Shown here: positions 1 through 11,156 of the stretch, one piece after another
How positions within the stretch are numbered: position 1 is the first letter of the stretch
How the letters are laid out: every line of letters starts with the position of its first letter
Assembly: GCF_026965535.1 (NCBI RefSeq)
Contig: NZ_CP114039.1
Span: forward strand, 8,035,461-8,099,460
DNA length: 64,000 nt
From: Corallococcus sp. NCRR
GTDB lineage: Bacteria; Myxococcota; Myxococcia; Myxococcales; Myxococcaceae
Direction of reading: 5' to 3'
Notes under the pieces: model-generated
Seen by the model: only the letters and a program-made list of their open reading frames with translations
The model's database searches: none
What the model was told of the DNA's origin: nothing
Position numbers and translations under genes: made by a program

Positions 1-1325
1 CCACGCTGCTCAAGGCGCGCATCGACGGCATCTCCGGCCGGAGCGGAGCGCTCACCGGCTACGTGGTGACGTGGACGGACGTCACGGATCAGCAGCGCGC
101 GGACACGGAGCTGGCGCGCCTCAGGGCCATGATGGAGAACGCGCCCACCTGCGTGATGGTGGCCGATCTGGACCTGAAGATCGTCTACCTGAACCCCGCC
201 TCGCGCCGGCTGTTGCAGCGCGTGGAGAAGCACCTGCCCGTCGCCGCGGACCGGGTGCTGGGCTCGCACATCGACGTCTTCCACCGGGACGTGACCTACC
301 AGCGGAAGATCCTGTCCAACGACAAGAACCTGCCGGTGCGCGCGAACATCCCCATTGGCCCGGAGACCGCGGACCTGCTGGTGACGGCGGTGTACGACGG
401 CCAGGGCCGCTACCTGGGCCCCATGGTGACGTGGGAGCTGATCACGGAGAAGCTCGCCGTGCAGCAGCGAGAGAAGGAGCTGGACGCCACCCTGCGCGGG
501 GTCTTCCAGGAGGTGATGCAGCACTCGCAGACGCTCGCCGCGTCGTCGCAGGAGCTGTCCAGCGTCAGCCAGCAGATGGTGAGCAACGCGCAGGAGACCG
601 CGGCGCAAGCCACCCAGGTGTCCGCCGGCGCCGAACAGGTCAGCCGCAACGTGCAGAGCGTCGCGTCCGGCATGGAGGAGGTCAACGCGAACATCCGCGA
701 GGTGGCGCGCAACGCGAGCACCGCCGCCAAGGTGGCCGCGTCCGCGGTGAAGCTCGCGGACTCCACGTCCAGCGTCGTCGGCAAACTGGGCACGAGCAGC
801 CAGGAGATCGGCAAGGTCATCAAGGTCATCACCTCCATCGCGCAGCAGACGAACCTGCTGGCGCTCAACGCGACCATCGAGGCGGCGCGCGCCGGTGAGG
901 CGGGCCGGGGCTTCGCGGTGGTGGCCAACGAGGTGAAGGAACTGGCGCGCGAGACGGCCCGCGCCACGGAGGACATCGGCCAGAAGATCGGCACCATCCA
1001 GGGCGACACCGAGGAGGTGGTCAACGCCATCCTGGAGATCGGCGCCACCATCGGCCGCATCAACGAGCTGCAGACGTCCATCGCCTCCTCCGTGGAGGAG
1101 CAGACGGCCACCGCGGGGGAGATCCTCCGCAACGTGGGCGAGGCCGCCAAGGGCAGCCAGCAGATCTCCGACAACATGGCCGCCGTCGCGGAGGCCGCGC
1201 GCAGCACCACCGAGGGCGCGGGCAGCACGCAGCGCTCGGCGGTGGAGCTGGCCCACATGGCGCAGTCGCTGCAACGGCTGGTCGTGCAGGTGGACACGTC
1301 CGACAAGCCGGCGCGGACGAAGTAG
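1..1325 (+). CDS. Methyl-accepting chemotaxis protein with PAS domain (5' end outside window)
   Basis: Frame open from position 3. The PAS-like N-terminal region is followed by an MCP signalling domain with Ala/Ser/Gln-rich coiled-coil heptads (e.g. [30 protein letters not shown]). Stop at 1323-1325. Confidence 0.85.
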
Positions 1326-1359
1326 CGCGGGCGGCACCAGGCCCTCGGAGCCACGGCAC

Positions 1360-2889
1360 ATGCGAACCGGATTGAAACGCTGGTGGGATCTGGGCCAGGT
1401 GGCCCGTGCCTCCACGCGCCTGAAGCGGGTGTCCCGGCCCCAGGACACGGAGCGCGCGCGGCACGAGCTGGCCCAGCGGTTGTTGGGCCTGCGCGGGCTG
1501 CCCCAGAAGGTGGGCCAGGTGCTCACGCTCGCGGAGCTGGGCGCGGATACGCCGGGGTTCGGTTCGCTCGCGGAGGCGCCCTCCCCGCTCGCTCCGGAGG
1601 CCGCGCTGACGGAGGTGTCGCGCCGGTTGGGCCGTCCGTGGCGGGAGGTGTTCCAGTCGCTGGACGGCGCGGGCATCTCCGCGTCGCTGGGCCAGGTGCA
1701 CCGGGGCGTGCTGCATGACGGGCGCGCCGTGGCCGTGAAGCTGCGGCACCCGGGCATCGCGGAGGCCCTGCGGGATGATCTGCGCGCGCTGGGGTGGCTG
1801 GCCGCGCCGCTGGGGGGCTGGCGCGGGAGGCTGGACCTGTCCGCGTACCGCCATGAGCTGGCCCACATGCTCCAGGGCGAGCTGGACTACCACCACGAGG
1901 CCCAGGCCCTGTGGGACGCGAACACGCGCATGGCGGACGTGCCGGGCGTCGTCGTCCCCGTGCCCGTGGACGCGCACACGCGGGAAGACCTGCTGGTGAT
2001 GACCTGGGTGGAGGGCGCGTCGCTCGCGGAGGGCTGGCGCTGGAGCGAAGCGGACCGCCGCGCGCTGTCCACGACGCTGGTGCGGCTGTTCCTCCACGGG
2101 TGCTTCACCTGGGGCGCGCTCCACGCGGATCCGCACCCGGGCAACTACCGCGTGTCGCGGGGACCAGACGGCAAGCCCGTGCTGGGCGTGCTCGACTTCG
2201 GCTGCGTGAAGCCACTGCCGCCGGAGCTGGCCGTGGGGCTGGGGCGGTTGATTTCGCTCCTCAAGTGCCCGGGCACGCCACCGAGCCCGGAGCAGCTCCT
2301 GTCCGCGTGGGTGATGCTGGGCTTCGCGCCGGAGCTCCTGGAGCCCATGGCGGAGGCGCTGCCCGCGGTCAGCCGCGTGCTGCTGGAGCCCTTCCTGCTG
2401 GACCGTCCCTTCCACGCGAGAAGCTGGCGGCTGGGCGAGCGGCTGACGGAAGCATTGGGGCCGCACCGCTGGAACTTCCGCGCGGCGGGGCCCGCGTCGC
2501 TCCTGTTCGTCCTGCGCGCGTTCCACGGGCTGGTGCGCCACCTGGACGTGCTGGATGCGCCCATCGCCTGGGGACCACTCCTGGACGAGGCCCGCGCCCC
2601 GTCACTGCCGCCTCCGCCGTCATCATCGGAAACGCGGGCGGAGGGCACCGCACGCTACCTGAAGGTCCAGGTGACGGAAGCCGGGCGCACGCGCGTCGCG
2701 CTGACCTTCCGCGCGGACGTGACGGCGCACCTGGAGGACCTGCTGCCGGAGGACCTGCCCGGAAAGCTGGCGGCTCGGGGCGTGGATCCAGCGGCCATTG
2801 GGATCGCGGCGGTCGCGGCGGGGCTGCGGCCATCGGAGCTGTTCCACCTGGATGAGGGCCCCCGGCGTGTCCGGGTCTGGCTCGAATGA
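1360..2889 (+). CDS. UbiB/ABC1 (aarF-domain) atypical protein kinase
   Basis: Motifs KVGQVLT, AVKLRHPGI and HADPHPGNY are characteristic of the ABC1/UbiB kinase family. 509 aa, tightly packed in the che operon. Confidence 0.75.
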   Translation: MRTGLKRWWDLGQVARASTRLKRVSRPQDTERARHELAQRLLGLRGLPQKVGQVLTLAELGADTPGFGSLAEAPSPLAPEAALTEVSRRLGRPWREVFQSLDGAGISASLGQVHRGVLHDGRAVAVKLRHPGIAEALRDDLRALGWLAAPLGGWRGRLDLSAYRHELAHMLQGELDYHHEAQALWDANTRMADVPGVVVPVPVDAHTREDLLVMTWVEGASLAEGWRWSEADRRALSTTLVRLFLHGCFTWGALHADPHPGNYRVSRGPDGKPVLGVLDFGCVKPLPPELAVGLGRLISLLKCPGTPPSPEQLLSAWVMLGFAPELLEPMAEALPAVSRVLLEPFLLDRPFHARSWRLGERLTEALGPHRWNFRAAGPASLLFVLRAFHGLVRHLDVLDAPIAWGPLLDEARAPSLPPPPSSSETRAEGTARYLKVQVTEAGRTRVALTFRADVTAHLEDLLPEDLPGKLAARGVDPAAIGIAAVAAGLRPSELFHLDEGPRRVRVWLE

Positions 2890-2911
2890 ACTGCGGACAA
2901 GGAGGTGACGG

Positions 2912-3247
2912 ATGGTCACCATCGGCATGAATTACGAAGTGCGTGAGGGCAAGGCGGACGCCTTCGAGCGGAAGTTCGCACTCGTGCTGGAGGCGATGCG
3001 CACGCTTCCGGCGCACGTGCACACGGAGCTGTTCAAGAGCGTGGCAGCGCCGGGGCGCTACCTCATCGTCTCCGAGTGGCACAGCCGCGAGGGCTTCGAC
3101 GCCTTCGTCGCGTCCGAGGCCTTCCACCGCGTGACGGACTGGGGCGCCAGCGCCATCCTCGCGAGCCGGCCGCGCCACGAGGTGTATGGCGACAGGGCCT
3201 CCGGTGCACCCATGGGCCGCTGCCCGGTCGCGCACGCGGTGCGGTGA
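2912..3247 (+). CDS. Antibiotic-biosynthesis-monooxygenase (ABM) domain protein
   Basis: ~110 aa, ferredoxin-like ABM pattern (VTIGMNYEVREGKADAFE...SEWHSREGFDAF). Confidence 0.6.
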   Translation: MVTIGMNYEVREGKADAFERKFALVLEAMRTLPAHVHTELFKSVAAPGRYLIVSEWHSREGFDAFVASEAFHRVTDWGASAILASRPRHEVYGDRASGAPMGRCPVAHAVR

Positions 3248-3258
3248 AGCGGGTGCGA

Positions 3259-4335
3259 ATGAACGCCATCCGGGTCCTGGTGGTGGACGACGCGGCCGTG
3301 GTGCGGCGACAGGTGTCGCTGCTGCTGGGCGCGGCGCCGGGCCTGGAGGTCGTCGCCACCGCGCCCAATGGCCGCATCGCCCTGGCGAAGGTGGAGCAGT
3401 TCCAGCCGGACGTCGTGCTGCTGGACCTGGAGATGCCGGAGCTGGACGGGCTGGAGACGCTGAAGCTTTTGCGCCAGCGCGCCCCGGAGCTGCCCGTGGT
3501 GATGTTCAGCGCGCTCACCGAACGCGGGGGCCTGCTGACCCTGGAGGCGCTCGCGCTGGGGGCTCGCGACTACGTGACGAAGCCCACATCCGCGGGCGGG
3601 ATGAACATCACCGTGGAGGCCGTGCGGGATGAGCTGGTGCGCAAGCTCAAGGCGCTGAACGTGCGCATGCCGACCACCACGCCGGCACCGTCACCCGCTC
3701 CGGCTCCGGTGACGCGCGAGCCCCCGTCCCGGCCGCGAACGCCCGCGCGGGTGGAGGCCATCGTCATCGGTGCATCCACGGGAGGCCCGGGCGCGCTGGT
3801 GCGCCTGGTGTCCGCGCTGCCCGCGGACCTGCCGGTGCCGGTGTTCATCGTGCAGCACATGCCGCCCCTCTTCACCCGGCTGCTCGCGGAGCGATTGCAG
3901 GGCGTGACGCCGCTCACCGTGCGCGAGGCGGTGACGGGCGCCTGCGTGCAGGCGGGCGAGGTGTGGGTCGCTCCCGGCGACTTCCATCTGGCCGTGTGCC
4001 GGGACGCGACGGGCGTGCGGCTGCTCACGCACCAGGGGCCGGCGGAGAACGCGTGCCGCCCGGCGGTGGACCTGCTCTTCCGCTCCGCGGCGGAGGTGTA
4101 CGGCGCGGGGGTGCTGGCGGCGGTGCTCACCGGCATGGGCCAGGACGGGCTGCGCGGCTGCCGGCGGGTGATTGAAGCAGGCGGACAGGTGGTGGTGCAG
4201 GACCAGGCCAGCTGCGTCGTCGGCAGCATGCCGGGCTCGGTGGAACAGGCGGGGCTCGCGGATGCCGTGGTGCCCCTGGACGCGCTGGCCCTGGAGCTGG
4301 CGCGGCGCGTGGATGCGCGCGGACGGAGGACCTGA
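3259..4335 (+). CDS. cheB: Chemotaxis response regulator protein-glutamate methylesterase CheB
   Basis: N-terminal receiver domain (VLVVDDAAVVRR...DVVLLDLEMPELDG) and C-terminal methylesterase with GASTGGP motif. The ATG at 3259 is in frame with the 3076 ORF and avoids overlap with the upstream ABM gene. Confidence 0.9.
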   Translation: MNAIRVLVVDDAAVVRRQVSLLLGAAPGLEVVATAPNGRIALAKVEQFQPDVVLLDLEMPELDGLETLKLLRQRAPELPVVMFSALTERGGLLTLEALALGARDYVTKPTSAGGMNITVEAVRDELVRKLKALNVRMPTTTPAPSPAPAPVTREPPSRPRTPARVEAIVIGASTGGPGALVRLVSALPADLPVPVFIVQHMPPLFTRLLAERLQGVTPLTVREAVTGACVQAGEVWVAPGDFHLAVCRDATGVRLLTHQGPAENACRPAVDLLFRSAAEVYGAGVLAAVLTGMGQDGLRGCRRVIEAGGQVVVQDQASCVVGSMPGSVEQAGLADAVVPLDALALELARRVDARGRRT

Positions 4336-4337
4336 GA

Positions 4338-5228
4338 ATGTCCCTGCTTCCCGACGACTTCGCCTACCTGCGGCAGCGCGTGCTGCGCCGCTCCGGGCTC
4401 GTGCTGGAGCCCGACACGTCCGCGCTGGTGGAGACGCGGCTCACGCCCCTCATGCGCGAGGAGCGGCTGCCGGACCTCTCCGCCCTGGTCGCGCGGCTGC
4501 GCTCGCAGCCGGAGGGCAGTCCGCTGCACCAGCGCCTGGCGGAGGCGCTGGCCAACCACGAGACGGCCTTCTTCCGCGACGCGCCCGTCTTCGAGGCCCT
4601 GCGCACCACGGTGCTGCCGGGCCTGCTGGCCAGGCGCGCCCGCACGCGGACGCTGCGCATCTGGTGCGCGGCGTGCGCCTACGGCCAGGAGCCCTACAGC
4701 ATCGCGATGACGCTGGCGGAGGCCGGGCTGCTCATCACCGGATGGACGGTGCGCATCCTCGCCACCGACTTCTCCACCCGCGCCATCGTCCGTGCCTGCG
4801 AGGCCCGCTACGACGCGAAGGAGATCCACCGCGGCCTGACGCCCGAGCTGCGCCAGCGCTACTTCCGCCAGGAGCGCGACGGGTGGCGGCTGAACGAACA
4901 CGTGCGCAGGCCGGTGGAGTTCCGGCCGCTCAACCTGATGGACGACTTCCCGCTGGAAGCGCCCGTGGACCTCGTCTTCCTGCGCAACGTGATGATCTAC
5001 TGGGACGTGCCCACCCGGCGCGCGGTGCTCGCCCGCGTGCGGCGGATGCTCCACGCGGACAGCTACCTGGTGCTGGGCGCCGCGGAGGCCTCGCCCCTGA
5101 TGGAGGACGGCTTCACGCGGCACCTGATGGGACAGACGAGCTGGTACCGCCCCACGCCCGCGTCCCAAGGCGTCGGCGCGGCCGTGGAGGAAGCGCGGCG
5201 CTCGCCCCGCTCCGGCGCTACACCTTGA
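4338..5228 (+). CDS. cheR: Chemotaxis protein methyltransferase CheR
   Basis: TAFFRD and IWCAACAYGQEPYS SAM-methyltransferase motifs. Starts 2 nt after the cheB stop. Confidence 0.9.
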   Translation: MSLLPDDFAYLRQRVLRRSGLVLEPDTSALVETRLTPLMREERLPDLSALVARLRSQPEGSPLHQRLAEALANHETAFFRDAPVFEALRTTVLPGLLARRARTRTLRIWCAACAYGQEPYSIAMTLAEAGLLITGWTVRILATDFSTRAIVRACEARYDAKEIHRGLTPELRQRYFRQERDGWRLNEHVRRPVEFRPLNLMDDFPLEAPVDLVFLRNVMIYWDVPTRRAVLARVRRMLHADSYLVLGAAEASPLMEDGFTRHLMGQTSWYRPTPASQGVGAAVEEARRSPRSGATP

Positions 5229-6138
5229 GGCGGATGGCGCCCGGGAGCAGCGTCATGGTGCAGGGCAGCCGGCCCGGCGTCTCGCCGTCCACGTCCAGGA
5301 ACACGTCGCCCGTCAGCGGCTCCGCGTGGATCGTGCGGCAGCGCAGCCGCCGCGTGCCCTTCCACGTGACGTGATCGCCGTTGTAGACGCCCTTGGACTT
5401 GAGGACGAAGTCGGACAGGCCGTAGTTGGACCAGATGGTGACGTCGAAGAGGCCGTCGTGCGTCACCGCCTCCGGCGCCACGAACATGCCGCTGCCGAAG
5501 TAGCGGCCATTGGCCACGGCCACCGCGGTGACGCTCACCGTCTCCGGCTCGCCGCCGTCCACCGTGAGGCGCACCTGCTGCTCCTGGTACTTGATGAGGC
5601 CCTTCACGGTGCCCCACATGAAGCTCAGGTTGCCGCCCAGCGCCTTGCTGCCCTGGTTCACCTCGCGGGCCACCACCGCGCTCACGCCGAACGAGGCGAT
5701 GTTGGCGAAGAAGCGCGTGGCGGGCTTGCCGTCGTTGTCCGTGAACTCCAGCCGCCCCACGTCGAAGGGCTCCGTCGCCTCCGTGCGCAGGCGCTCCAGC
5801 GCGGACGTCAGCTCCAGGTCCCAGCCGAAGGTGCGGCGGAAGTCGCCGCCCGTGCCTCGGGGCAACAGGCCCAGCGTGGCCCGGGGGTTGATGACCTGTC
5901 CGTCGCGGAAGAAGCCGTTGGTGACCTCGTTGAGGGTGCCGTCGCCGCCCACCGCGACGATGCACTCATAGCCGTCGTCGATGGCCTGCTGCGCCAGACG
6001 CGCCGCATCCATGCCGCCGCTGGTGAAGCCGTACCCGAAGTCACCGAGCACCTTGCCCACCTGCGCGGAGATCTCCACCCATCGCTTCCCCGTCTGCCCG
6101 TTGGCGCTGCGCGGGTTGACCACGAGGAACGTCTTCAT
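5218..6138 (-). CDS. YegS/BmrU-family lipid (diacylglycerol) kinase
   Basis: DAGK catalytic-domain motifs (VNPRSANG, AVGGDGTLNEV, LGLLPRGTGGDF). Convergent with cheR, overlapping it by 11 nt. Confidence 0.8.
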   Translation of the reverse strand: MKTFLVVNPRSANGQTGKRWVEISAQVGKVLGDFGYGFTSGGMDAARLAQQAIDDGYECIVAVGGDGTLNEVTNGFFRDGQVINPRATLGLLPRGTGGDFRRTFGWDLELTSALERLRTEATEPFDVGRLEFTDNDGKPATRFFANIASFGVSAVVAREVNQGSKALGGNLSFMWGTVKGLIKYQEQQVRLTVDGGEPETVSVTAVAVANGRYFGSGMFVAPEAVTHDGLFDVTIWSNYGLSDFVLKSKGVYNGDHVTWKGTRRLRCRTIHAEPLTGDVFLDVDGETPGRLPCTMTLLPGAIRLKV

Positions 6139-6202
6139 TCAGTGCCTTCTCCCTGCTGCCAGAACGGCCTGTTTACGCAATTGTGGGCCCAGGCTCCACT
6201 CC

Positions 6203-6973
6203 ATGACCCACGGGAGGGCCTCCGTGCCCGGGGTGTTTGTCACCCGGCCCCGTCCATGCTGGGCTCTCCGCCCCTGTTTTCGTCCCGGACCCCGAGTGAA
6301 AGCCCCGTCCCCCACCGAGCAGCTCGCGCCCCACCGGGAGGCCACGCGCGCCCTGGACTGGGCGCTGCCCGCGCTCCGGGCGGACCTGGCGGCGGCGGCG
6401 CGGCAGCCCTTCCGGGAGACGGGCGCCCAGGAGGACTTCCTGCACCGGCATGACGCACCGGCCCATGAAGTCCAGGGGCCGGCGCGGACGGAGCGCTTCG
6501 AGCGGGCCCTGGCCCGGGTGCGCCAGCTCGCGGACGCGGGCGAGCCGCTGACCTTCGCCCGGATGGTGGAGGTCCAGTCGGAGCTCCTGGGCGGCCCCAC
6601 GGGCTTCCGCACCGGGGACGCCTTCGCGTGGGGTGGCGCGCACCGCTACGCGCACGAGCCCGGCCTGGAGGCGGCCTTCCGCGACAAGGTGGAAGCGGAC
6701 GCGGGGGAAGCGCGTCACCCGGTGGCACATGCCACGCGGTTGTACCTGGACCTGTGCTTCTTCCACCCCTTCCCGGACGGCAACGCCCGCGCGGCGCGGC
6801 TGTGGCTGGAATACATGCTGCGCCGGGGACAGGTGCCCACGCCTCCGCTGGCGCCCGTGGTGCTGTGGCCCAAGCACCCGGGAGACACGGTGAACTACAC
6901 GCGGCTGGCGAGGCTGCTGGCCCGGACCATCGCGGGGCCGGACGCCCCGTGCCGCAACGAGGTGCCCGAATGA
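6203..6973 (+). CDS. Fic/Doc-family protein (non-canonical motif HPFPDGNARAAR)
   Basis: Fic core motif HPFxDGN-A-RxxR has Ala in place of the second Gly of the canonical HxFx(D/E)GNGRxxR. The start is uncertain: ATG 6203 is the first Met, but the first ~40 aa are R/P-rich and a GTG at 6296 is possible. Confidence 0.7.
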   Translation: MTHGRASVPGVFVTRPRPCWALRPCFRPGPRVKAPSPTEQLAPHREATRALDWALPALRADLAAAARQPFRETGAQEDFLHRHDAPAHEVQGPARTERFERALARVRQLADAGEPLTFARMVEVQSELLGGPTGFRTGDAFAWGGAHRYAHEPGLEAAFRDKVEADAGEARHPVAHATRLYLDLCFFHPFPDGNARAARLWLEYMLRRGQVPTPPLAPVVLWPKHPGDTVNYTRLARLLARTIAGPDAPCRNEVPE

Positions 6974-7635
6974 GCAGCAATGCTTCGGCTTTCACGTGGC
7001 GCCGCATCCGCGACAGCCTGGATGCCTATTCACCGCAATCGCTGGCATCCCGGCTGAGGGAGGCCCTGGCCCCCCTGCGGGCCGGCAGCATCCACGCCAG
7101 CCGGCTCAAGCAGGCGAAGAACGCCGTGCAGGACCTGCTCCAGGCCGAACTGGGGCCCTGGTACATCGAGAGTGGTCTGCCCCTGGGCAATGAAGTGCTG
7201 GGGGGCTATTGCTGGTGCCACTCGTTCTTCAACCAGAACCCGCCGCATCGGACGATGGATGTGGATGAGAACATCCAGCTCATGCTGGACGCGCTGGAGC
7301 GGATCCGTTCGTTCCTGTACGCGCTGGACGGCGTGTATCAGGCCTCGCGCCGTCAGCTTGAAGCGGCCGCTGACGACAGGGCGCTCCGGGCGAAGGCGCT
7401 CGCGGAAGGGCTGGTGCGGACCGTGGACCTGACGGCGGAGACGACGTCCTGCGAGGAGACCTGGTACCAGGTCGCGCAGGACGCCATGACGTGGTGCATC
7501 GAGGCGATGGGACTGCCCTTGTCGGAGGCCACGCAGGAGCAGTTGGACACCGCCTTCGTCTTCACGTCGTGGATCGCGCCTCCTCCGGACGCCCTCCGGG
7601 ACGCGGCGGCGCGGGTGGCGGCGGTGGCCGTATGA
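6970..7635 (+). CDS. Hypothetical protein, Fic-associated paralogue A (GGYCWCH motif)
   Basis: 221 aa. Its ATG overlaps the Fic stop (ATGA). ~40-45% identical to the next gene along its full length. Conserved blocks are W.RIRDSL..Y.P, LGPWY.E.GL.LGNE..GGYCWCH.FF.Q.P, NIQLM.DALER and T.CEE.W. Confidence 0.65.
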   Translation: MSSNASAFTWRRIRDSLDAYSPQSLASRLREALAPLRAGSIHASRLKQAKNAVQDLLQAELGPWYIESGLPLGNEVLGGYCWCHSFFNQNPPHRTMDVDENIQLMLDALERIRSFLYALDGVYQASRRQLEAAADDRALRAKALAEGLVRTVDLTAETTSCEETWYQVAQDAMTWCIEAMGLPLSEATQEQLDTAFVFTSWIAPPPDALRDAAARVAAVAV

Positions 7636-8327
7636 GCCGGTCGGCCCTGGGGCACTGGCCGCGCATCCGCGACAGCCTGGAGGGGTACGAACCGGAGAAG
7701 CTCATCCGGATGCTGCGCGAGTACCTGACGCCGCGCGTGCCTCCGGGGACGCGCAAGCTCACGGACGAGCAGCACGACACGATGGCGAAACACATCCAGC
7801 GGATGCTCAACCAGAACCTGGGGCCCTGGTACACGGAGACAGGGTTGTATCTGGGCAATGAGAGCTTCGGCGGCTACTGCTGGTGCCACCGCTTCTTCCG
7901 GCAGAAGCCCACCCCGAACATGAGCGTGGAATACAACATCCAGCTCATGGTCGACGCGCTGGAGCGGTCCCGCGAATGGCTGTTCAAGCTGGAGGCCCAC
8001 TTCCAGGCGCTGAAGCGGGATTTGCCCTCGGGCCCGGATGACCATGACATCCGGATGCTGGCCCTGGCGGATGGAATCGTCACCACGATGAACCTCACCA
8101 TGGACGCCACGGGCTGCGAGGAGGCCTGGTCCACCTTCGCGGACCAGGCGCTGGCCTGGATGTTCGACGCCATCGGGCTGCGCCCGGGCTATCAGGCCGG
8201 GAAGCTGATGCGGAAGCTGTTCGCCTTCGAGTCCTGGCACTCGCCTTCCGAGCCGGAGCTGCGCGGCTCGGCGGAGAAGGTGGCAGCGGCCGTCGTGGAG
8301 GACGAGGGCCGCCGCCACACGCACTGA
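7632..8327 (+). CDS. Hypothetical protein, Fic-associated paralogue B (GGYCWCH motif)
   Basis: 231 aa. Its ATG overlaps the stop of paralogue A (ATGA). Tandem duplicate of the preceding gene. Confidence 0.65.
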   Translation: MSRSALGHWPRIRDSLEGYEPEKLIRMLREYLTPRVPPGTRKLTDEQHDTMAKHIQRMLNQNLGPWYTETGLYLGNESFGGYCWCHRFFRQKPTPNMSVEYNIQLMVDALERSREWLFKLEAHFQALKRDLPSGPDDHDIRMLALADGIVTTMNLTMDATGCEEAWSTFADQALAWMFDAIGLRPGYQAGKLMRKLFAFESWHSPSEPELRGSAEKVAAAVVEDEGRRHTH

Positions 8328-8342
8328 CGCGAGCGCCCCCCC

Positions 8343-8999
8343 TCAGTGGATGGGCTTCCCGCGCGTCATCCGGCGGGCATGCTCGCCGGAGCCTCCCTTC
8401 ACCTCGATGCGCTTGCCCTGGGGCAGCGCCTCCGGGAGCTTCAGGGAGACCTCCAGGACACCGTTCTCGAAGTTCGCCTGGACCGACTCCGTGTCGATGC
8501 CTTCCGGAAGCGGAATGGCGCGGCGGAACAGCCCGGTGCTGCGCTCCAGGCTCCAGACGCCTTCGGCCTCCTCTTCCTCTTCCCGTTCGAAGGAACGTTC
8601 GCCTTCGATGATGAGCAGGTCCGGCTGCAACTCGACGAGGATGTCCTCCTGCTTCATTCCCGGCAGGTCGGCCTTCACGATGAGGTTTCCGTTCCGCTCC
8701 AGCACGTCCACCTGCGGCGACCAGAGCCCCTCGTCCAGCACGCCGCTGCTCCGGGCGGTGAGGCCCCGGCCTCCCTTGCCGGTGACGAGCTGGTCCATGT
8801 CCTCCAGCATCCGGCGCAACAGTCCGAACGGGCTCAGCGGCGCGATCTCCCGGCCAATGGCGGGTGCGCGGGCGATGCCAGCGCCCGTCCTGGGCTCCTG
8901 TCCCTGCGAGGTGATGCCCTGCGCGTCGGCCTGGGCTTTCTTCACCGCGGGCGAGGAGGGCTCCCCCTGCGCGCCTGGGTTCCTGTTGTCGGTTGCCAT
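8343..8999 (-). CDS. Hsp20/alpha-crystallin family small heat-shock protein
   Basis: C-terminal alpha-crystallin domain (SPQVDVLERNGNLIVKADLPGMKQEDILVEL...GVLEVSLKLP). The internal ATG at 8999 is preceded by a GGGGGAGGATG RBS; the longer 9113 ORF is an unlikely N-extension. Confidence 0.8.
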   Translation of the reverse strand: MATDNRNPGAQGEPSSPAVKKAQADAQGITSQGQEPRTGAGIARAPAIGREIAPLSPFGLLRRMLEDMDQLVTGKGGRGLTARSSGVLDEGLWSPQVDVLERNGNLIVKADLPGMKQEDILVELQPDLLIIEGERSFEREEEEEAEGVWSLERSTGLFRRAIPLPEGIDTESVQANFENGVLEVSLKLPEALPQGKRIEVKGGSGEHARRMTRGKPIH

Positions 9000-9161
9000 G
9001 ACATCCTCCCCCGGTGGAGCCGGCTGGCGCCCGGCCGCCGGACCGCACCGGTCATTGAGCGGGGATGGAATCATCCCAACTCCAAACCTGGAGGTGCGTG
9101 GCGGGACCATCAAGGGTCCGGGAGCGCCGGAGCCCTGGGCCCCTTCTTCGAGGGAACGCCG

Positions 9162-10049
9162 CTACGCGAGCAGCGTGGCGTCCATCACGGTGAGGGCCAC
9201 CCCGCCGACGCGGGCGCGCTCGATGTGGCCTGGCCGGCCGGTGACCTGGATGTCGATGCGGCCCGGCTTGCCGAGCGTGTCGCCCTGCTCGATGCGGCTC
9301 GACACCGTGCCGCCGTGCTCCGGGAGGCGAAGGCTCCCATGCTCGGCGAGCCAGGCCGCGAGCGGTCCCGCGGCGGAGCCCGTCACGGGGTCCTCCAGGA
9401 TGCCGAAGCCTGGGACGAAGTAGCGCGCCTGGGCCACGCTCCCCTCCTCCTTCGCTTCACGGGTGAAGAGGTAGACGCCGCGCAAGCCGTGCGGCATCAG
9501 CAGCGCGTTCATCGCCGCGCCTCGCGGCGTCAGCGCTTCCAGGTCCGCGAGCCGCCGGAGGGGCACGACCAGCCGGTGGCCCTGGCGGATCACCGGCAGC
9601 GACGGGTCCACCTGTGACGCCGTCCCGCCCAGCGTGGCCATCAGCGCGTCCAGCGCCACGGTGTTGGGCTGCACGGGCGGCGGGGGCGTGGTGATCCACA
9701 CGCGCGTCCCCTGCGTGCCCTGGGGCTCCAGCTCGATGTGGAACGTGCCACCGGGGCACTCCAGCGTGTATTGCCCCGGGCTTCGCAGGAGCCCCTTCTC
9801 CGCGAGGAGATGGAAGGTGGCCACCGTGGCGTGGCCGCAGAAGGGAATCTCGTCCACGGGCGTGAAGTAGCGCAGGCGCACGGTGGCGTCGCCGGGCCGG
9901 GACAGCAGGAACGCGGTCTCCGACGCGCTGACGGCCGCGGCGGTCCGCTGCATCGTGGGGACCTCCAGCGCCGAGGCGTCGAGCACCACGCCCGCGCGGT
10001 TTCCTGCACCGGCAGTGCGGGTGAAGGCGTCGATGATGTGAACCTGCAT
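9162..10049 (-). CDS. PhzF-family phenazine-biosynthesis-like isomerase
   Basis: Full-length PhzF fold signature (MQVHIIDAFT...PFCGHATVA...GSAAGPLAAWL). Confidence 0.85.
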   Translation of the reverse strand: MQVHIIDAFTRTAGAGNRAGVVLDASALEVPTMQRTAAAVSASETAFLLSRPGDATVRLRYFTPVDEIPFCGHATVATFHLLAEKGLLRSPGQYTLECPGGTFHIELEPQGTQGTRVWITTPPPPVQPNTVALDALMATLGGTASQVDPSLPVIRQGHRLVVPLRRLADLEALTPRGAAMNALLMPHGLRGVYLFTREAKEEGSVAQARYFVPGFGILEDPVTGSAAGPLAAWLAEHGSLRLPEHGGTVSSRIEQGDTLGKPGRIDIQVTGRPGHIERARVGGVALTVMDATLLA

Positions 10050-10192
10050 GGGCGGACTCCGGAGAGCAGAAGGGCCTGGGAAACAGCGCAGGCATGCTCC
10101 GCTCCACCATTGGCGTCAAGCGCTGGCCGGAACACCGGAGCCCCCAACAACAGGGTTGAACAAGTGCGCCCGAGCAGGCACAGCAAGGAGGC

Positions 10193-10969
10193 ATGAATCT
10201 CGTGAAGTCGGGTGGGTGGGTGGTGCTGGTGGTGTTGCTCCATGCGAGCGGCGCGGCGGCACAAATCGTCAACGTGCAGGCGCTCTTCGACGAGAAGGCG
10301 GAGCCGGGGCCGGCCGCGGCCATCGAGCTGGGAGGCGACTGGCGCACGGGCAGCACCGAGCTGTTCTCCATTCGGGGCTCCCTGGTGGGCCAGCTGCGCT
10401 CCGAGCGCGAGGTCTGGCTGGGCGTCATCCGGGGTGAGTATTCGTTCGCCAGCGGCGAGCGCATCGTCAGCCAGGTGCTGGAGCACGTGCGCTACCGGCG
10501 CAAGTTCACGGACGTGGTGTCGGGCGAGGTCTTCGCGCAGCACGAGTACAACGAGTTCCGCCGGCTCCAGTTCCGGGCCCTGCTGGGCGCGGGGCCGCGC
10601 TTCATCCTGCTCAACGAAGAAAGCCTCGGGATCACCTTCGGGGTGGCGCTGATGATGGAGTACGAGCGGCTGCGCAATGACGGCGAGGCGGACGCGGGAG
10701 ACCGCTACACGGACCCGAGAGTCTCCAGCTACCTGCTGGGGCGGGTGAAGCTGATGGAGAACATCAACCTCGTGGAGACGGTCTACTTCCAGCCGCGAGT
10801 CACCCGCCCCTCCGACCTGCGAGTCCTCAACGAGACGATCTTCGCGATGACGCCCAATCCCCGCGTCACGGTGGGCATCGGCTTCAACCTCACCTACGAC
10901 AGCGCGCCGCCCGCGACGGTCCCGCCCCTCGACACGCAGTTGCGAACCACGGTGGGAGTGAAGTTTTGA
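10193..10969 (+). CDS. DUF481-family outer-membrane beta-barrel protein
   Basis: Signal peptide, alternating beta-strand pattern, C-terminal aromatic residue (…TVGVKF). Confidence 0.6.
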   Translation: MNLVKSGGWVVLVVLLHASGAAAQIVNVQALFDEKAEPGPAAAIELGGDWRTGSTELFSIRGSLVGQLRSEREVWLGVIRGEYSFASGERIVSQVLEHVRYRRKFTDVVSGEVFAQHEYNEFRRLQFRALLGAGPRFILLNEESLGITFGVALMMEYERLRNDGEADAGDRYTDPRVSSYLLGRVKLMENINLVETVYFQPRVTRPSDLRVLNETIFAMTPNPRVTVGIGFNLTYDSAPPATVPPLDTQLRTTVGVKF

Positions 10970-11156
10970 GTGGGTGGCCAGTCGTTCGTTGACGGAAGCA
11001 CGGCTCGGGCGCTGGCGCCCGAACAAGCACCTTCGCATGGGAGCGGACTTCACTCCCAGGTGCTTCGGAACATTCAACGGAAGGCGCTGGACGTGTTCGC
11101 TTGCTCGAAGTGTGGAAACAGGAGGTGCGCTCATCCAGCGCGCCTTCGCCGCCCTT

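What the first reader, a model, noticed from the sequence alone, without database searches (positions are those of the whole stretch)
6203..8327. Fic protein translationally coupled to two tandem paralogues of an uncharacterised GGYCWCH-motif protein
Three genes are chained by ATGA start/stop overlaps (6970-6973 and 7632-7635). The Fic protein carries a non-canonical active-site motif, HPFPDGNARAAR (Ala instead of the second Gly of HxFx(D/E)GNGRxxR). Such deviations often signal a non-AMPylating chemistry. The two downstream ~225-aa proteins are clear paralogues over their full length, sharing W.RIRDSL..Y.P, LGPWY.E.GL.LGNE..GGYCWCH.FF.Q.P, NIQLM.DALER and T.CEE.W with three conserved Cys and one His. 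I recognise no known family and I see no (S/T)xxxE(G/N) inhibitory motif typical of FicA/VbhA antitoxins. They are also far larger than class I antitoxins, which are usually encoded upstream of the toxin. This looks like an undescribed Fic-partner module. The partners could be an immunity/antitoxin, a substrate mimic or a metal-binding cofactor, and one copy was recently duplicated.
Basis: partly seen in the sequence, partly recalled or inferred. Interest (0 to 1): 0.7.

Follow-up and report, generated by a model that had tools for sequence, protein, structure and literature searches.

The report
Fic enzyme with new dedicated partner
A Corallococcus operon encodes an unusual Fic protein-modifying enzyme plus two copies of an uncharacterised helical protein that in every other bacterium checked sits next to, or is fused to, the same kind of Fic enzyme, so the two form a previously undescribed functional pair whose biochemistry is still unknown.

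Summary
Three + strand genes are chained by ATGA overlaps: Fic (most likely GTG 6296-6973, not ATG 6203), P1 (6970-7635) and P2 (7632-8327). The Fic motif is HPFPDGNARAAR. P1 and P2 are 44% identical full-length paralogues, so the duplication is old, not recent. P1/P2 match no Pfam, NCBIfam, PADLOC or PDB family, and a confident AF2 model (pLDDT 85.6, all-alpha) has no structural neighbour.

- The P gene abuts a Fic gene in 11/11 Myxococcaceae loci and 12/12 further contexts.
- Those contexts include Hyalangium, Amycolatopsis, Micromonospora, Allokutzneria, Streptomyces plasmids and metagenomes. Most have the order P->Fic.
- 40 of the 196 P-domain proteins aligned are natural P-Fic fusions (hhalign 99.2%, E 2.6e-19). 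The fusion modelled folds as one rigid unit (pTM 0.88).
- GNAR marks the whole Fic clade (61/64 homologues). The clade lacks the canonical inhibitory motif.

The CWCH cysteines occur in only about two thirds of the family. The universal signature is Trp-rich: W, G.W, TxxxD/E-A-W-Y, F.SW..P.

Function is inferred. The partner is most likely a cis/trans regulatory, antitoxin-like subunit. This is a new variant of a known kind.

The parts
6139..6295 (.). Divergent intergenic region between the DAG-kinase-like gene (- strand) and Fic. It holds three non-coding blocks that are invariant or nearly so in 10 Corallococcus genomes: 6167-6185, 6231-6245 (GGGTG-N5-CACCC palindrome) and 6254-6265. This is the presumed promoter/operator region.
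   Evidence: The alignment of 10 genomes shows the ATG at 6203 is not conserved and that frame-breaking indels occur here, so the region is non-coding. No sigma-70 consensus was found.
6296..6973 (+). Fic-domain protein of 225 aa with a GTG start. It belongs to the 'GNAR' clade.
6764..6799 (+). Fic active-site motif HPFPDGNARAAR. H, D, N, R and the final R are retained; the second Gly is replaced by Ala.
   Evidence: Sequence. 61 of 64 homologues have GNAR and 3 have GNGR.
6970..7635 (+). P1, 221 aa. This is the lineage-specific extra copy of the Fic-partner domain. Its start overlaps the Fic stop (ATGA).
   Evidence: AF2 model pLDDT 85.6, all-alpha. No PDB neighbour. It is absent in L009/L010 and truncated in L006. 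dN/dS 0.26-0.53.
7204..7221 (+). P1 GYCWCH motif (G79-H84).
   Evidence: Invariant in the myxobacterial alignment A1. Across 196 family members C81 is 65%, C83 70% and H84 60% conserved.
7444..7467 (+). P1 T159-S-C-E-E-T-W-Y166. This is the most conserved polar motif of the superfamily, T-x-x-x-(D/E)-(A/S/T)-W-Y.
   Evidence: T 83%, acidic 91%, W 98%, Y 86% over 196 sequences.
7632..8327 (+). P2, 231 aa. This is the ancestral-type copy of the Fic-partner domain. Its start overlaps the P1 stop (ATGA). The GYCWCH motif lies at 7872-7889.
   Evidence: It is the only copy type in L009, L010 and L011. dN/dS 0.17-0.44.

Best explanation
The operon encodes a two-component module. One component is a Fic-fold enzyme of a distinct clade (HPFxDGNAR(A/S)A) that lacks the canonical inhibitory helix motif. 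The other is its dedicated partner, a roughly 220-aa all-alpha, Trp-rich domain of a previously undescribed family, present here in two diverged copies.

Shown:
- The partner domain is genetically locked to this Fic clade across distant lineages.
- It occurs upstream, downstream, or fused N-terminally to Fic. The separate genes overlap by 4 or 14 nt in most contexts and abut within about 50 nt in the rest.

Inferred:
- The partner binds the Fic domain as one structural unit.
- It acts as a regulatory, most likely autoinhibitory or antitoxin-like, subunit. It would gate the nucleotidyl-transferase site in place of the small FicA/VbhA-type helix.
- The candidate contact element is the conserved T-x-x-x-(D/E)-A-W-Y motif.
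- The Cys-x-Cys-His cluster may be an accessory metal or redox site.
- In Corallococcus, translational coupling (ATGA) would tie P1 and P2 synthesis to Fic synthesis. P2 is the ancestral partner and P1 a faster-evolving, dispensable extra copy.

My confidence that this is a functional Fic-partner unit is about 0.9. My confidence that the partner's role is inhibitory or regulatory is about 0.4-0.5. The single confidence figure given for this explanation (0.55) is for the whole statement, including the inferred regulatory role.
For: Linkage:
- All 11 genome loci with a P gene have Fic immediately upstream.
- Twelve further independent contexts all have Fic and P adjacent. They are L012, L013/14 Amycolatopsis, L015 Micromonospora, L016 Hyalangium, L017 Allokutzneria, L018/19, L021, L022 Streptomyces plasmid, L024, L025/26 and two JGI contigs.

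Fusions:
- 20 of 64 Fic homologues are 404-448-aa proteins whose N-terminal half is homologous to P1/P2 (hhalign prob 99.2%, E 2.6e-19).
- 40 of the 196 aligned family members are fusions, and L023 is a plasmid-borne fusion.
- The AF2 model of fusion P0065 has pLDDT 89.4 and pTM 0.88, which implies a fixed inter-domain arrangement.

Fic clade:
- It lacks (S/T)xxxE(G/N), with only 2 of 64 matches, judged fortuitous (one lies in the P-domain half of a fusion).
- It keeps all catalytic residues except the G->A change.

Other:
- There is precedent for non-canonical Fic antitoxins unrelated to FicA (Fti3, PMC5651007).
- Mobile or accessory settings elsewhere fit a TA or defence-like module: Tn7-like tnsABC, a restriction endonuclease and a HEPN/MNT pair nearby, and 23 actinomycete plasmids.
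- All three genes are under purifying selection.
Against: - No experiment or inter-chain contact map shows that the partner touches the active site.
- The conserved acidic residue is mostly Asp followed by Ala, not the Glu-Gly/Asn of the known inhibitory motif.
- The myxobacterial Fic proteins carry a near-match, TGAQED. It lies in the helix that, by order in the fusion model, corresponds to the class II inhibitory helix. They might therefore self-inhibit, leaving the partner another role.
- In Corallococcus, Pyxidicoccus and Hyalangium the module sits in a stable, syntenic, housekeeping-looking neighbourhood (che genes, lipid kinase, Hsp20, PhzF). That is atypical for TA or defence cargo.
- Covalent toxin-antitoxin fusions are uncommon.
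Confidence: 0.55

Rival explanations
1. The partner domain is not an inhibitor. It is a substrate-recruiting or specificity adaptor, or is itself the modified substrate. In that case Fic would NMPylate the conserved Thr159 or Tyr166 of P, in cis in the fusions.
For: T159 (83%) and Y166 (86%) are hydroxyl residues within the best-conserved motif. Fic enzymes modify Thr/Tyr/Ser hydroxyls and often auto-modify (established knowledge; NmFic oligomer regulation is cited in PMC5651007). The myxobacterial Fic may carry its own degenerate inhibitory helix, TGAQED. The P-domain also occurs with extra domains: TIGR02996 at the N-terminus and a 300-aa unknown C-terminal extension.
Against: No data show modification. 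A dedicated 1:1 encoded substrate is unusual. The conservation is dominated by buried aromatics (W, F), which is typical of a structural scaffold.
Confidence: 0.2
2. The partner is an independent metal-binding or redox or catalytic protein, using the Cys-x-Cys-His (+Cys161) cluster, that works in a pathway with Fic. One example would be a redox sensor that switches Fic on.
For: C81, C83 and H84 are invariant in the myxobacterial family. A Cys pair is present in about two thirds of the superfamily and co-occurs with C161 (odds ratio 3.3, p 3e-4, not phylogeny-corrected).
Against: The motif varies (CxCH, WCC, CCxH). Some fusions aligned have no Cys at this site, and about a third of members lack C81 or C83. 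A universally required catalytic or metal site is therefore unlikely. No fold match to any metalloprotein or thiol enzyme was found.
Confidence: 0.1
3. This is a classical class I FicTA module. The partner supplies the canonical (S/T)xxxE(G/N) inhibitory helix in trans, as VbhA/FicA does.
For: The Fic protein lacks an intrinsic canonical motif, is translationally coupled to its partner, and in most lineages the partner is encoded upstream.
Against: The canonical motif is absent from P1, P2 and the wider family. The partner is about 220 aa and unrelated in sequence and fold to FicA/VbhA. In the window the order is toxin first.
Confidence: 0.05
4. The adjacency is coincidental. P1/P2 are unrelated housekeeping genes that merely share an operon with Fic in one genus.
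For: Within Myxococcaceae the linkage could reflect simple synteny.
Against: Linkage recurs in unrelated genomic contexts and phyla, in both gene orders and as gene fusions.
Confidence: 0.01

Closest known systems
Class I Fic toxin-antitoxin modules (VbhT/VbhA, FicT/FicA; Engel et al. 2012, as summarised in PMC5651007)
   Same: The Fic enzyme has no intrinsic inhibitory motif. It is encoded in a translationally coupled pair with a dedicated partner. In most lineages of this family the partner is upstream.
   Different: The partner is about 220 aa rather than about 60-70 aa. It is unrelated in sequence and fold and lacks (S/T)xxxE(G/N). It is often covalently fused to Fic. The Fic motif is GNAR, not GNGR. 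Toxicity is untested.
Class II Fic proteins (SoFic 3zcn, FICD 4u04, M. marinum Fic 7cb8)
   Different: At most 206 of 426 residues align, so the P-domain has no counterpart in them. The canonical inhibitory Glu motif is absent, with only the near-match TGAQED in the myxobacterial subclade.
C. fetus Fic2/Fic3 with the non-canonical antitoxin Fti3 (PMC5651007)
   Same: This is a precedent for Fic proteins with a substituted second Gly (G->T in Fic2). It is also a precedent for a Fic-neutralising partner unrelated to FicA.
   Different: The substitution differs, and Fic2 has also lost the final Arg. Fti3 is a 78-aa protein with no homology to P1/P2.
Fused toxin-antitoxin defence proteins such as CapRel-SJ46 (PMC9712102)
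   Same: The logic matches: an enzymatic toxin domain is covalently joined to an autoinhibitory domain that could double as a sensor. Related two-gene versions exist.
   Different: The enzyme fold is entirely different (RelA/SpoT versus Fic). There is no evidence here for phage sensing or defence. There were no phage-genome hits and no PADLOC hit for P.

Membership tests
Fic/Fido superfamily (Pfam PF02661) | Profile match above the Pfam gathering score | tested here: met
   33.8 bits against a cut-off of 24, E 6.5e-8.
Fic/Fido superfamily (Pfam PF02661) | Fic fold: helical core with a beta-hairpin flap before the motif helices | tested here: met
Canonical AMPylating Fic, motif HxFx(D/E)GNGRxxR | All motif residues present, including the second Gly | tested here: not met
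   The motif is HPFPDGNARAAR. H, F, D, G, N, R and the final R are present, and the second Gly is Ala. This is clade-wide.
Canonical AMPylating Fic, motif HxFx(D/E)GNGRxxR | AMP transfer to a target hydroxyl | not testable with these tools
   Needs a biochemical assay.
Doc kinases, motif HxFx(D/N)(A/G)NKR | Lys in place of the second Gly; no final Arg | tested here: not met
   The residue is Ala, not Lys, and the final Arg is present.
Class I FicTA | Fic lacks an intrinsic (S/T)xxxE(G/N) motif | tested here: met
   Regex finds no match in the window Fic and 2 of 64 matches in the clade, judged fortuitous.
Class I FicTA | Small partner carrying (S/T)xxxE(G/N) | tested here: not met
   P1 and P2 have no such motif. 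They are 221 and 231 aa.
Class I FicTA | Partner neutralises Fic toxicity | not testable with these tools
   Needs expression assays.
Class II / III Fic | Intrinsic N- or C-terminal (S/T)xxxE(G/N) helix | tested here: not met
   There is no canonical match. The near-match TGAQED occurs at residues 42-47, only in the Corallococcus orthologues and in P0035. The other myxobacterial homologues carry T-x-A-Q-E plus a variable residue, and the position is D-A-H-x-x-Y in fusions.
XopAC/AvrAC effectors (NCBIfam NF041381) | Score above the family cut-off | tested here: not met
   32.2 bits against a cut-off of 450. This is Fic-domain similarity only.
Known anti-phage defence families (PADLOC: SoFic, PDC-S04, PDC-S24) | Full-length profile match of the components | tested here: inconclusive
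   Fic gives weak, partial, domain-level hits (E 3e-7 to 4e-3). P1 and P2 give none.
Any described family for P1/P2 (Pfam, NCBIfam, PDB sequences and folds) | Significant sequence or fold match | tested here: not met

The most novel reading that the evidence does not exclude
The P-domain is a new type of Fic regulator and sensor that replaces the universal inhibitory-glutamate helix. It clamps a GNAR-type Fic active site through its T-x-x-x-D/E-A-W-Y element and releases it in response to a signal. That signal could be redox or metal state read by the Cys-x-Cys-His cluster, or an invader protein. On this reading the P-Fic pairs and fusions of actinomycetes, myxobacteria and other soil bacteria would be an undescribed fused or split toxin-antitoxin or defence system. 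The GNAR change may also indicate a chemistry other than AMPylation.
Probability: 0.2. Interest if true: 0.8.

Novelty: new variant of a known kind. Interest (0 to 1): 0.58.

Why it matters
Fic enzymes are thought to be controlled almost universally by an inhibitory glutamate helix, which defines classes I-III. This clade breaks that pattern in several ways:
- It spans at least two phyla (Myxococcota and Actinomycetota) and lacks that motif. The exhaustive search found 214 partner-domain clusters at 50% identity.
- It carries a clade-specific GNAR active-site loop.
- It is tied to a new 220-aa domain with no known relatives.

Working out what the partner does would extend the rules of Fic regulation. 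It would also give a function to proteins now annotated only as 'hypothetical protein' or 'Fic family protein' in the named genomes, which are Streptomyces and other actinomycetes and myxobacteria. Finally, it would show whether the G->A change alters nucleotide or substrate chemistry. The natural split, inverted and fused versions make convenient genetic controls.

Tried and rejected
- **Family libraries for P1/P2.** Pfam, NCBIfam and PADLOC scans gave nothing significant.
- **Locating the inhibitory helix by sequence.** A profile search of the Fic clade against PDB sequences aligned only the motif region, so the attempt failed.
- **C-terminal extension of the ~510-aa P-domain proteins.** The 300-aa extension has no Pfam hit and no relation to Fic or P.
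- **Cluster names.** The look-up for fusions and distant members returned no names.
- **Literature.** A search for a described GNAR Fic motif found nothing. One 'anywhere' search on 'GNAR' was uninformative. Khater & Mohanty 2015 list five motif groups, none of them GNAR.
- **Promoter/terminator scan.** No sigma-70 promoter turned up, and terminator-like sites were at chance level.
- **Mobility of the module.** tblastn of P2 against plasmids and of the fusion against phages gave no match.
- **Rejected ideas.** Recent duplication, the ATG 6203 start, and CWCH as the universal functional core.
Full report
**1. Observation**

The + strand carries three consecutive ORFs. The first ends at 6973.

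The first protein matches Pfam Fic/DOC above threshold (33.8 bits against 24). It carries HPFPDGNARAAR at nt 6764-6799.

The two downstream proteins (221 and 231 aa) align end to end at 44% identity, E 4e-62.

The genes are real:
- GC3 is 0.87-0.88 in the ORFs that contain Fic and P2.
- Pairwise dN/dS against orthologues in ten other genomes is 0.24-0.39 for Fic, 0.26-0.53 for P1 and 0.17-0.44 for P2. The neighbouring lipid-kinase gene gives a similar 0.13-0.33.
- The long antisense ORFs are the usual high-GC artefacts.

One coordinate needs correcting: the Fic start.
- Most annotated Corallococcus orthologues are 225 aa.
- In an alignment of the upstream region from ten Corallococcus genomes, the GTG at 6296 is invariant.
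- The ATG at 6203 is GCG or GTG in some genomes. Indels that are not multiples of three lie between the two codons.
- Fic is therefore most likely 6296-6973.

**2. What the paralogues are**

P1 and P2 hit nothing in Pfam, NCBIfam or PADLOC.

A word-indexed search of 5.8 billion proteins found only 24 clusters. All are 'hypothetical' and all come from Corallococcus, Pyxidicoccus or Myxococcaceae MAGs.

An AF2 model of P1 built from 16 sequences is confident (pLDDT 85.6, pTM 0.85) and entirely alpha-helical.
- Foldseek against PDB gives no hit with E<1.

An exhaustive profile search of 1.84 billion cluster representatives found 214 clusters at E<=1e-3. Most are stand-alone proteins of about 220-240 aa. 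Many others are proteins of about 410-450 aa.

**3. The decisive evidence: linkage and fusion**

*Within Myxococcaceae.* In all 11 genome loci recovered with the family motif, a Fic gene lies immediately upstream of the P gene(s). Wherever the contig extends far enough, the synteny is the same: CheR, lipid kinase (-), Fic, P, Hsp20 (-), PhzF (-).

*Outside that synteny.* Twelve independent contexts again all show Fic and P adjacent. Separation ranges from a 14-nt overlap to a gap of about 50 nt (Pyxidicoccus, within the genome set above):

| Context | Order |
|---|---|
| Metagenomic contig L012 | Fic->P |
| Hyalangium L016 | Fic->P |
| Amycolatopsis L013/14 | P->Fic |
| Micromonospora L015 | P->Fic |
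| Allokutzneria L017 | apparently split P, then Fic |
| MAG L018/19 | P->Fic |
| L021: cut Fic with HPFCDGNARAAR, then a 529-aa P-domain protein | Fic->P |
| Streptomyces megaplasmid L022 | P->Fic |
| L024 | P->Fic |
| L025/26 | P->Fic |
| Two JGI contigs | P->Fic |

HMM searches confirmed the identity of both partners in every locus for which DNA was available.

*Natural fusions.*
- Twenty of the 64 Fic homologues found are 404-448-aa proteins. Their C-terminal half is the GNAR Fic domain. Their N-terminal half is homologous to P1/P2 (hhalign probability 99.2%, E 2.6e-19 over 209 columns).
- Forty of 196 aligned family members are such fusions.
- One fusion lies on a Streptomyces plasmid (L023).
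- An AF2 model of fusion P0065 has pLDDT 89.4 and pTM 0.88. That implies a fixed arrangement of the two domains.

Its stated refutation criterion (homologues never Fic-adjacent elsewhere) is clearly not met.

**4. The Fic clade**

GNAR is not a private deviation. Sixty-one of 64 homologues have HPFxDGNAR(A/S)A and three have GNGR.

The catalytic His, the Asp, the Asn and both Arg residues are retained. Nucleotidyl or phosphoryl transfer is therefore plausible. Whether the Gly-to-Ala change alters the chemistry cannot be decided from sequence.

The five motif groups catalogued by Khater & Mohanty (GNKR, NANKR, GNGR, GNTR, Q...NKR; PMC4454073) do not include GNAR.

The canonical inhibitory motif (S/T)xxxE(G/N) is absent from the window Fic, P1 and P2. 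In the Fic clade it occurs only twice in 64 proteins, which I judge fortuitous.

The myxobacterial subclade has a near-match, TGAQED, at residues 42-47. It lies in the helix that, by order in the fusion model, corresponds to the class II inhibitory helix. In the fusions and actinomycete proteins this position is D-A-H-x-x-Y with no conserved Glu. A profile search against PDB sequences aligned only the motif region, so this correspondence stays an inference.

**5. Anatomy of the partner family**

Conservation across 196 sequences:

| Position (P1 numbering) | Conservation |
|---|---|
| W10 | 97% |
| G62 | 94% |
| W64 | 97% |
| T159 | 83% |
| Acidic residue at 163 | 91% (D 66%, E 25%) |
| Small residue at 164 | A 62% |
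| W165 | 98% |
| Y166 | 86% |
| W175 | 91% |
| F198 | 95% |
| S200 | 96% |
| W201 | 95% |
| P204 | 94% |
| C81 / C83 / H84 | 65% / 70% / 60% |

Variants include WCC and CCxH, and some fusions have no cysteine at all there.

The Cys pair co-occurs with C161 (odds ratio 3.3, p 3e-4, not corrected for phylogeny). An accessory metal or redox site in part of the family is possible. A universal catalytic role is unlikely.

The motif T-x-x-x-(D/E)-(A/S)-W-Y has the shape of the known inhibitory motif but differs in detail. I flag it as the prime candidate contact element. I could not test this because model coordinates are not exposed.

The P profile is unrelated to the Fic profile (hhalign 0.3%).

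**6. History of the two copies**

- Pyxidicoccus and Hyalangium each have a single copy. Two Corallococcus genomes (L009, L010) have a single copy of the P2 type.
- Divergent Corallococcus and Myxococcaceae lineages (L007, L008) already have both copies.
- C. coralloides KYC2213 (L006) has a truncated P1.
- P1 orthologues diverge faster than P2: 56-58% against 70-72% identity in the same genome pairs, with higher dN/dS.

P2 is therefore the ancestral partner. P1 is an old extra copy that is less constrained and can be lost. It is not a recent duplicate.

**7. Context**

In the window the operon sits among ordinary chromosomal genes: MCP, ABC1 kinase, CheB, CheR, a YegS/DAGK-type lipid kinase, Hsp20, PhzF, DUF481, a hydrolase and ProC. 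No mobile elements are present, and there is no second copy of either family in the 64 kb.

Elsewhere the module appears in accessory settings:
- 23 Streptomyces, Kitasatospora and Embleya plasmids
- next to Tn7-like tnsA/B/C genes
- near a restriction endonuclease
- next to a HEPN/MNT pair

There were no phage-genome hits.

The patchy distribution across phyla, combined with stable synteny within Myxococcaceae, fits an accessory module that became fixed in that lineage.

**8. Mechanism**

Shown: a strict genetic coupling between the GNAR Fic clade and the P-domain, seen as split, inverted and fused genes.

Inferred:
- The two form one structural unit. This rests on the fusions, the pTM of 0.88 and the translational coupling.
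- The clade lacks the canonical inhibitory helix, so the P-domain most likely supplies regulation of the active site, in cis or in trans. That would make it a non-canonical, antitoxin-like or sensor subunit. There is precedent for Fic antitoxins unrelated to FicA (PMC5651007).

I put about 0.9 on the statement that this is a functional Fic-partner unit. I put about 0.4-0.5 on an inhibitory or regulatory role.

Rivals:
- P is a substrate or a specificity adaptor, based on the conserved T159 and Y166 (about 0.2).
- P is a metal or redox protein (about 0.1).
- This is a canonical class I FicTA (about 0.05; contradicted on the motif).
- The adjacency is chance (refuted).

**9. Comparison and novelty**

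The module works most like a class I FicTA pair, or like a class II Fic with a cis regulatory N-terminus. It fails the defining motif tests of classes I-III, of Doc, and of the strict GNGR signature. The partner belongs to no described family or fold.

I found no description of it in the family libraries, in genome annotations (which say 'hypothetical protein | Fic family protein') or in the searchable literature.

I rate it a new variant of a known kind. It is of moderate to good interest and has clear, cheap experiments.

Noticed in passing
window 6167-6185, 6231-6245, 6254-6265: Three non-coding blocks in the lipid-kinase/Fic divergent intergenic region are invariant or nearly so across 10 Corallococcus genomes. 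One is GGGTG-N5-CACCC, a short palindrome that could be an operator. No sigma-70 consensus was detected.
   Followed up: partly
window 63-5228: A chemotaxis-type cluster lies upstream: MCP (63-1325), ABC1 atypical kinase (1360-2889), CheB (about 3262-4335) and CheR (4338-5228). The CheR 3' end overlaps the convergent YegS/DAGK-like lipid-kinase gene (5218-6138, - strand) by 11 nt.
   Followed up: partly
window 8343-9113 (- strand): An Hsp20-family protein has an unusually long N-terminal extension of about 135 aa. It is convergent with P2, and the two stop codons are only 15 nt apart with no terminator-like structure between them.
   Followed up: no
L006 6001-6534; L009; L010: The P1 copy is truncated in C. 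coralloides KYC2213 and overlaps P2 there. It is absent in Corallococcus sp. RDP092CA and C. praedator, so presence of P1 varies within the genus.
   Followed up: partly
P0128, P0130, P0138, P0145; L021 424-2013: Proteins of about 510 aa consist of a P-domain with the same GNESFGGCWCHSP motif plus a conserved C-terminal domain of about 300 aa. That domain has no Pfam hit and no relation to Fic or P. In L021 the protein follows a GNAR Fic gene and precedes a HEPN/MNT pair.
   Followed up: partly
JGI contig of P0120 (no DNA available): A P-domain fused to an N-terminal TIGR02996-type segment (328 aa) precedes Fic (218 aa). A further 229-aa gene with no Pfam hit follows and might be a second P copy, which would give a P-Fic-P arrangement.
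   Followed up: no
L022 (Streptomyces sp. NBC_01243 plasmid) 6110-11057: The P->Fic pair lies beside Tn7-like genes: a TnsA-like endonuclease, a Mu-transposase C-terminal domain protein and an ATP-binding protein. This suggests carriage as transposon cargo.
   Followed up: no
L017 3384-4004 (Allokutzneria): The P gene appears split into two short ORFs of 95 and 104 aa upstream of Fic. Only the second matches the C-terminal half of the P profile. This may be a frameshift or a pseudogene.
   Followed up: no
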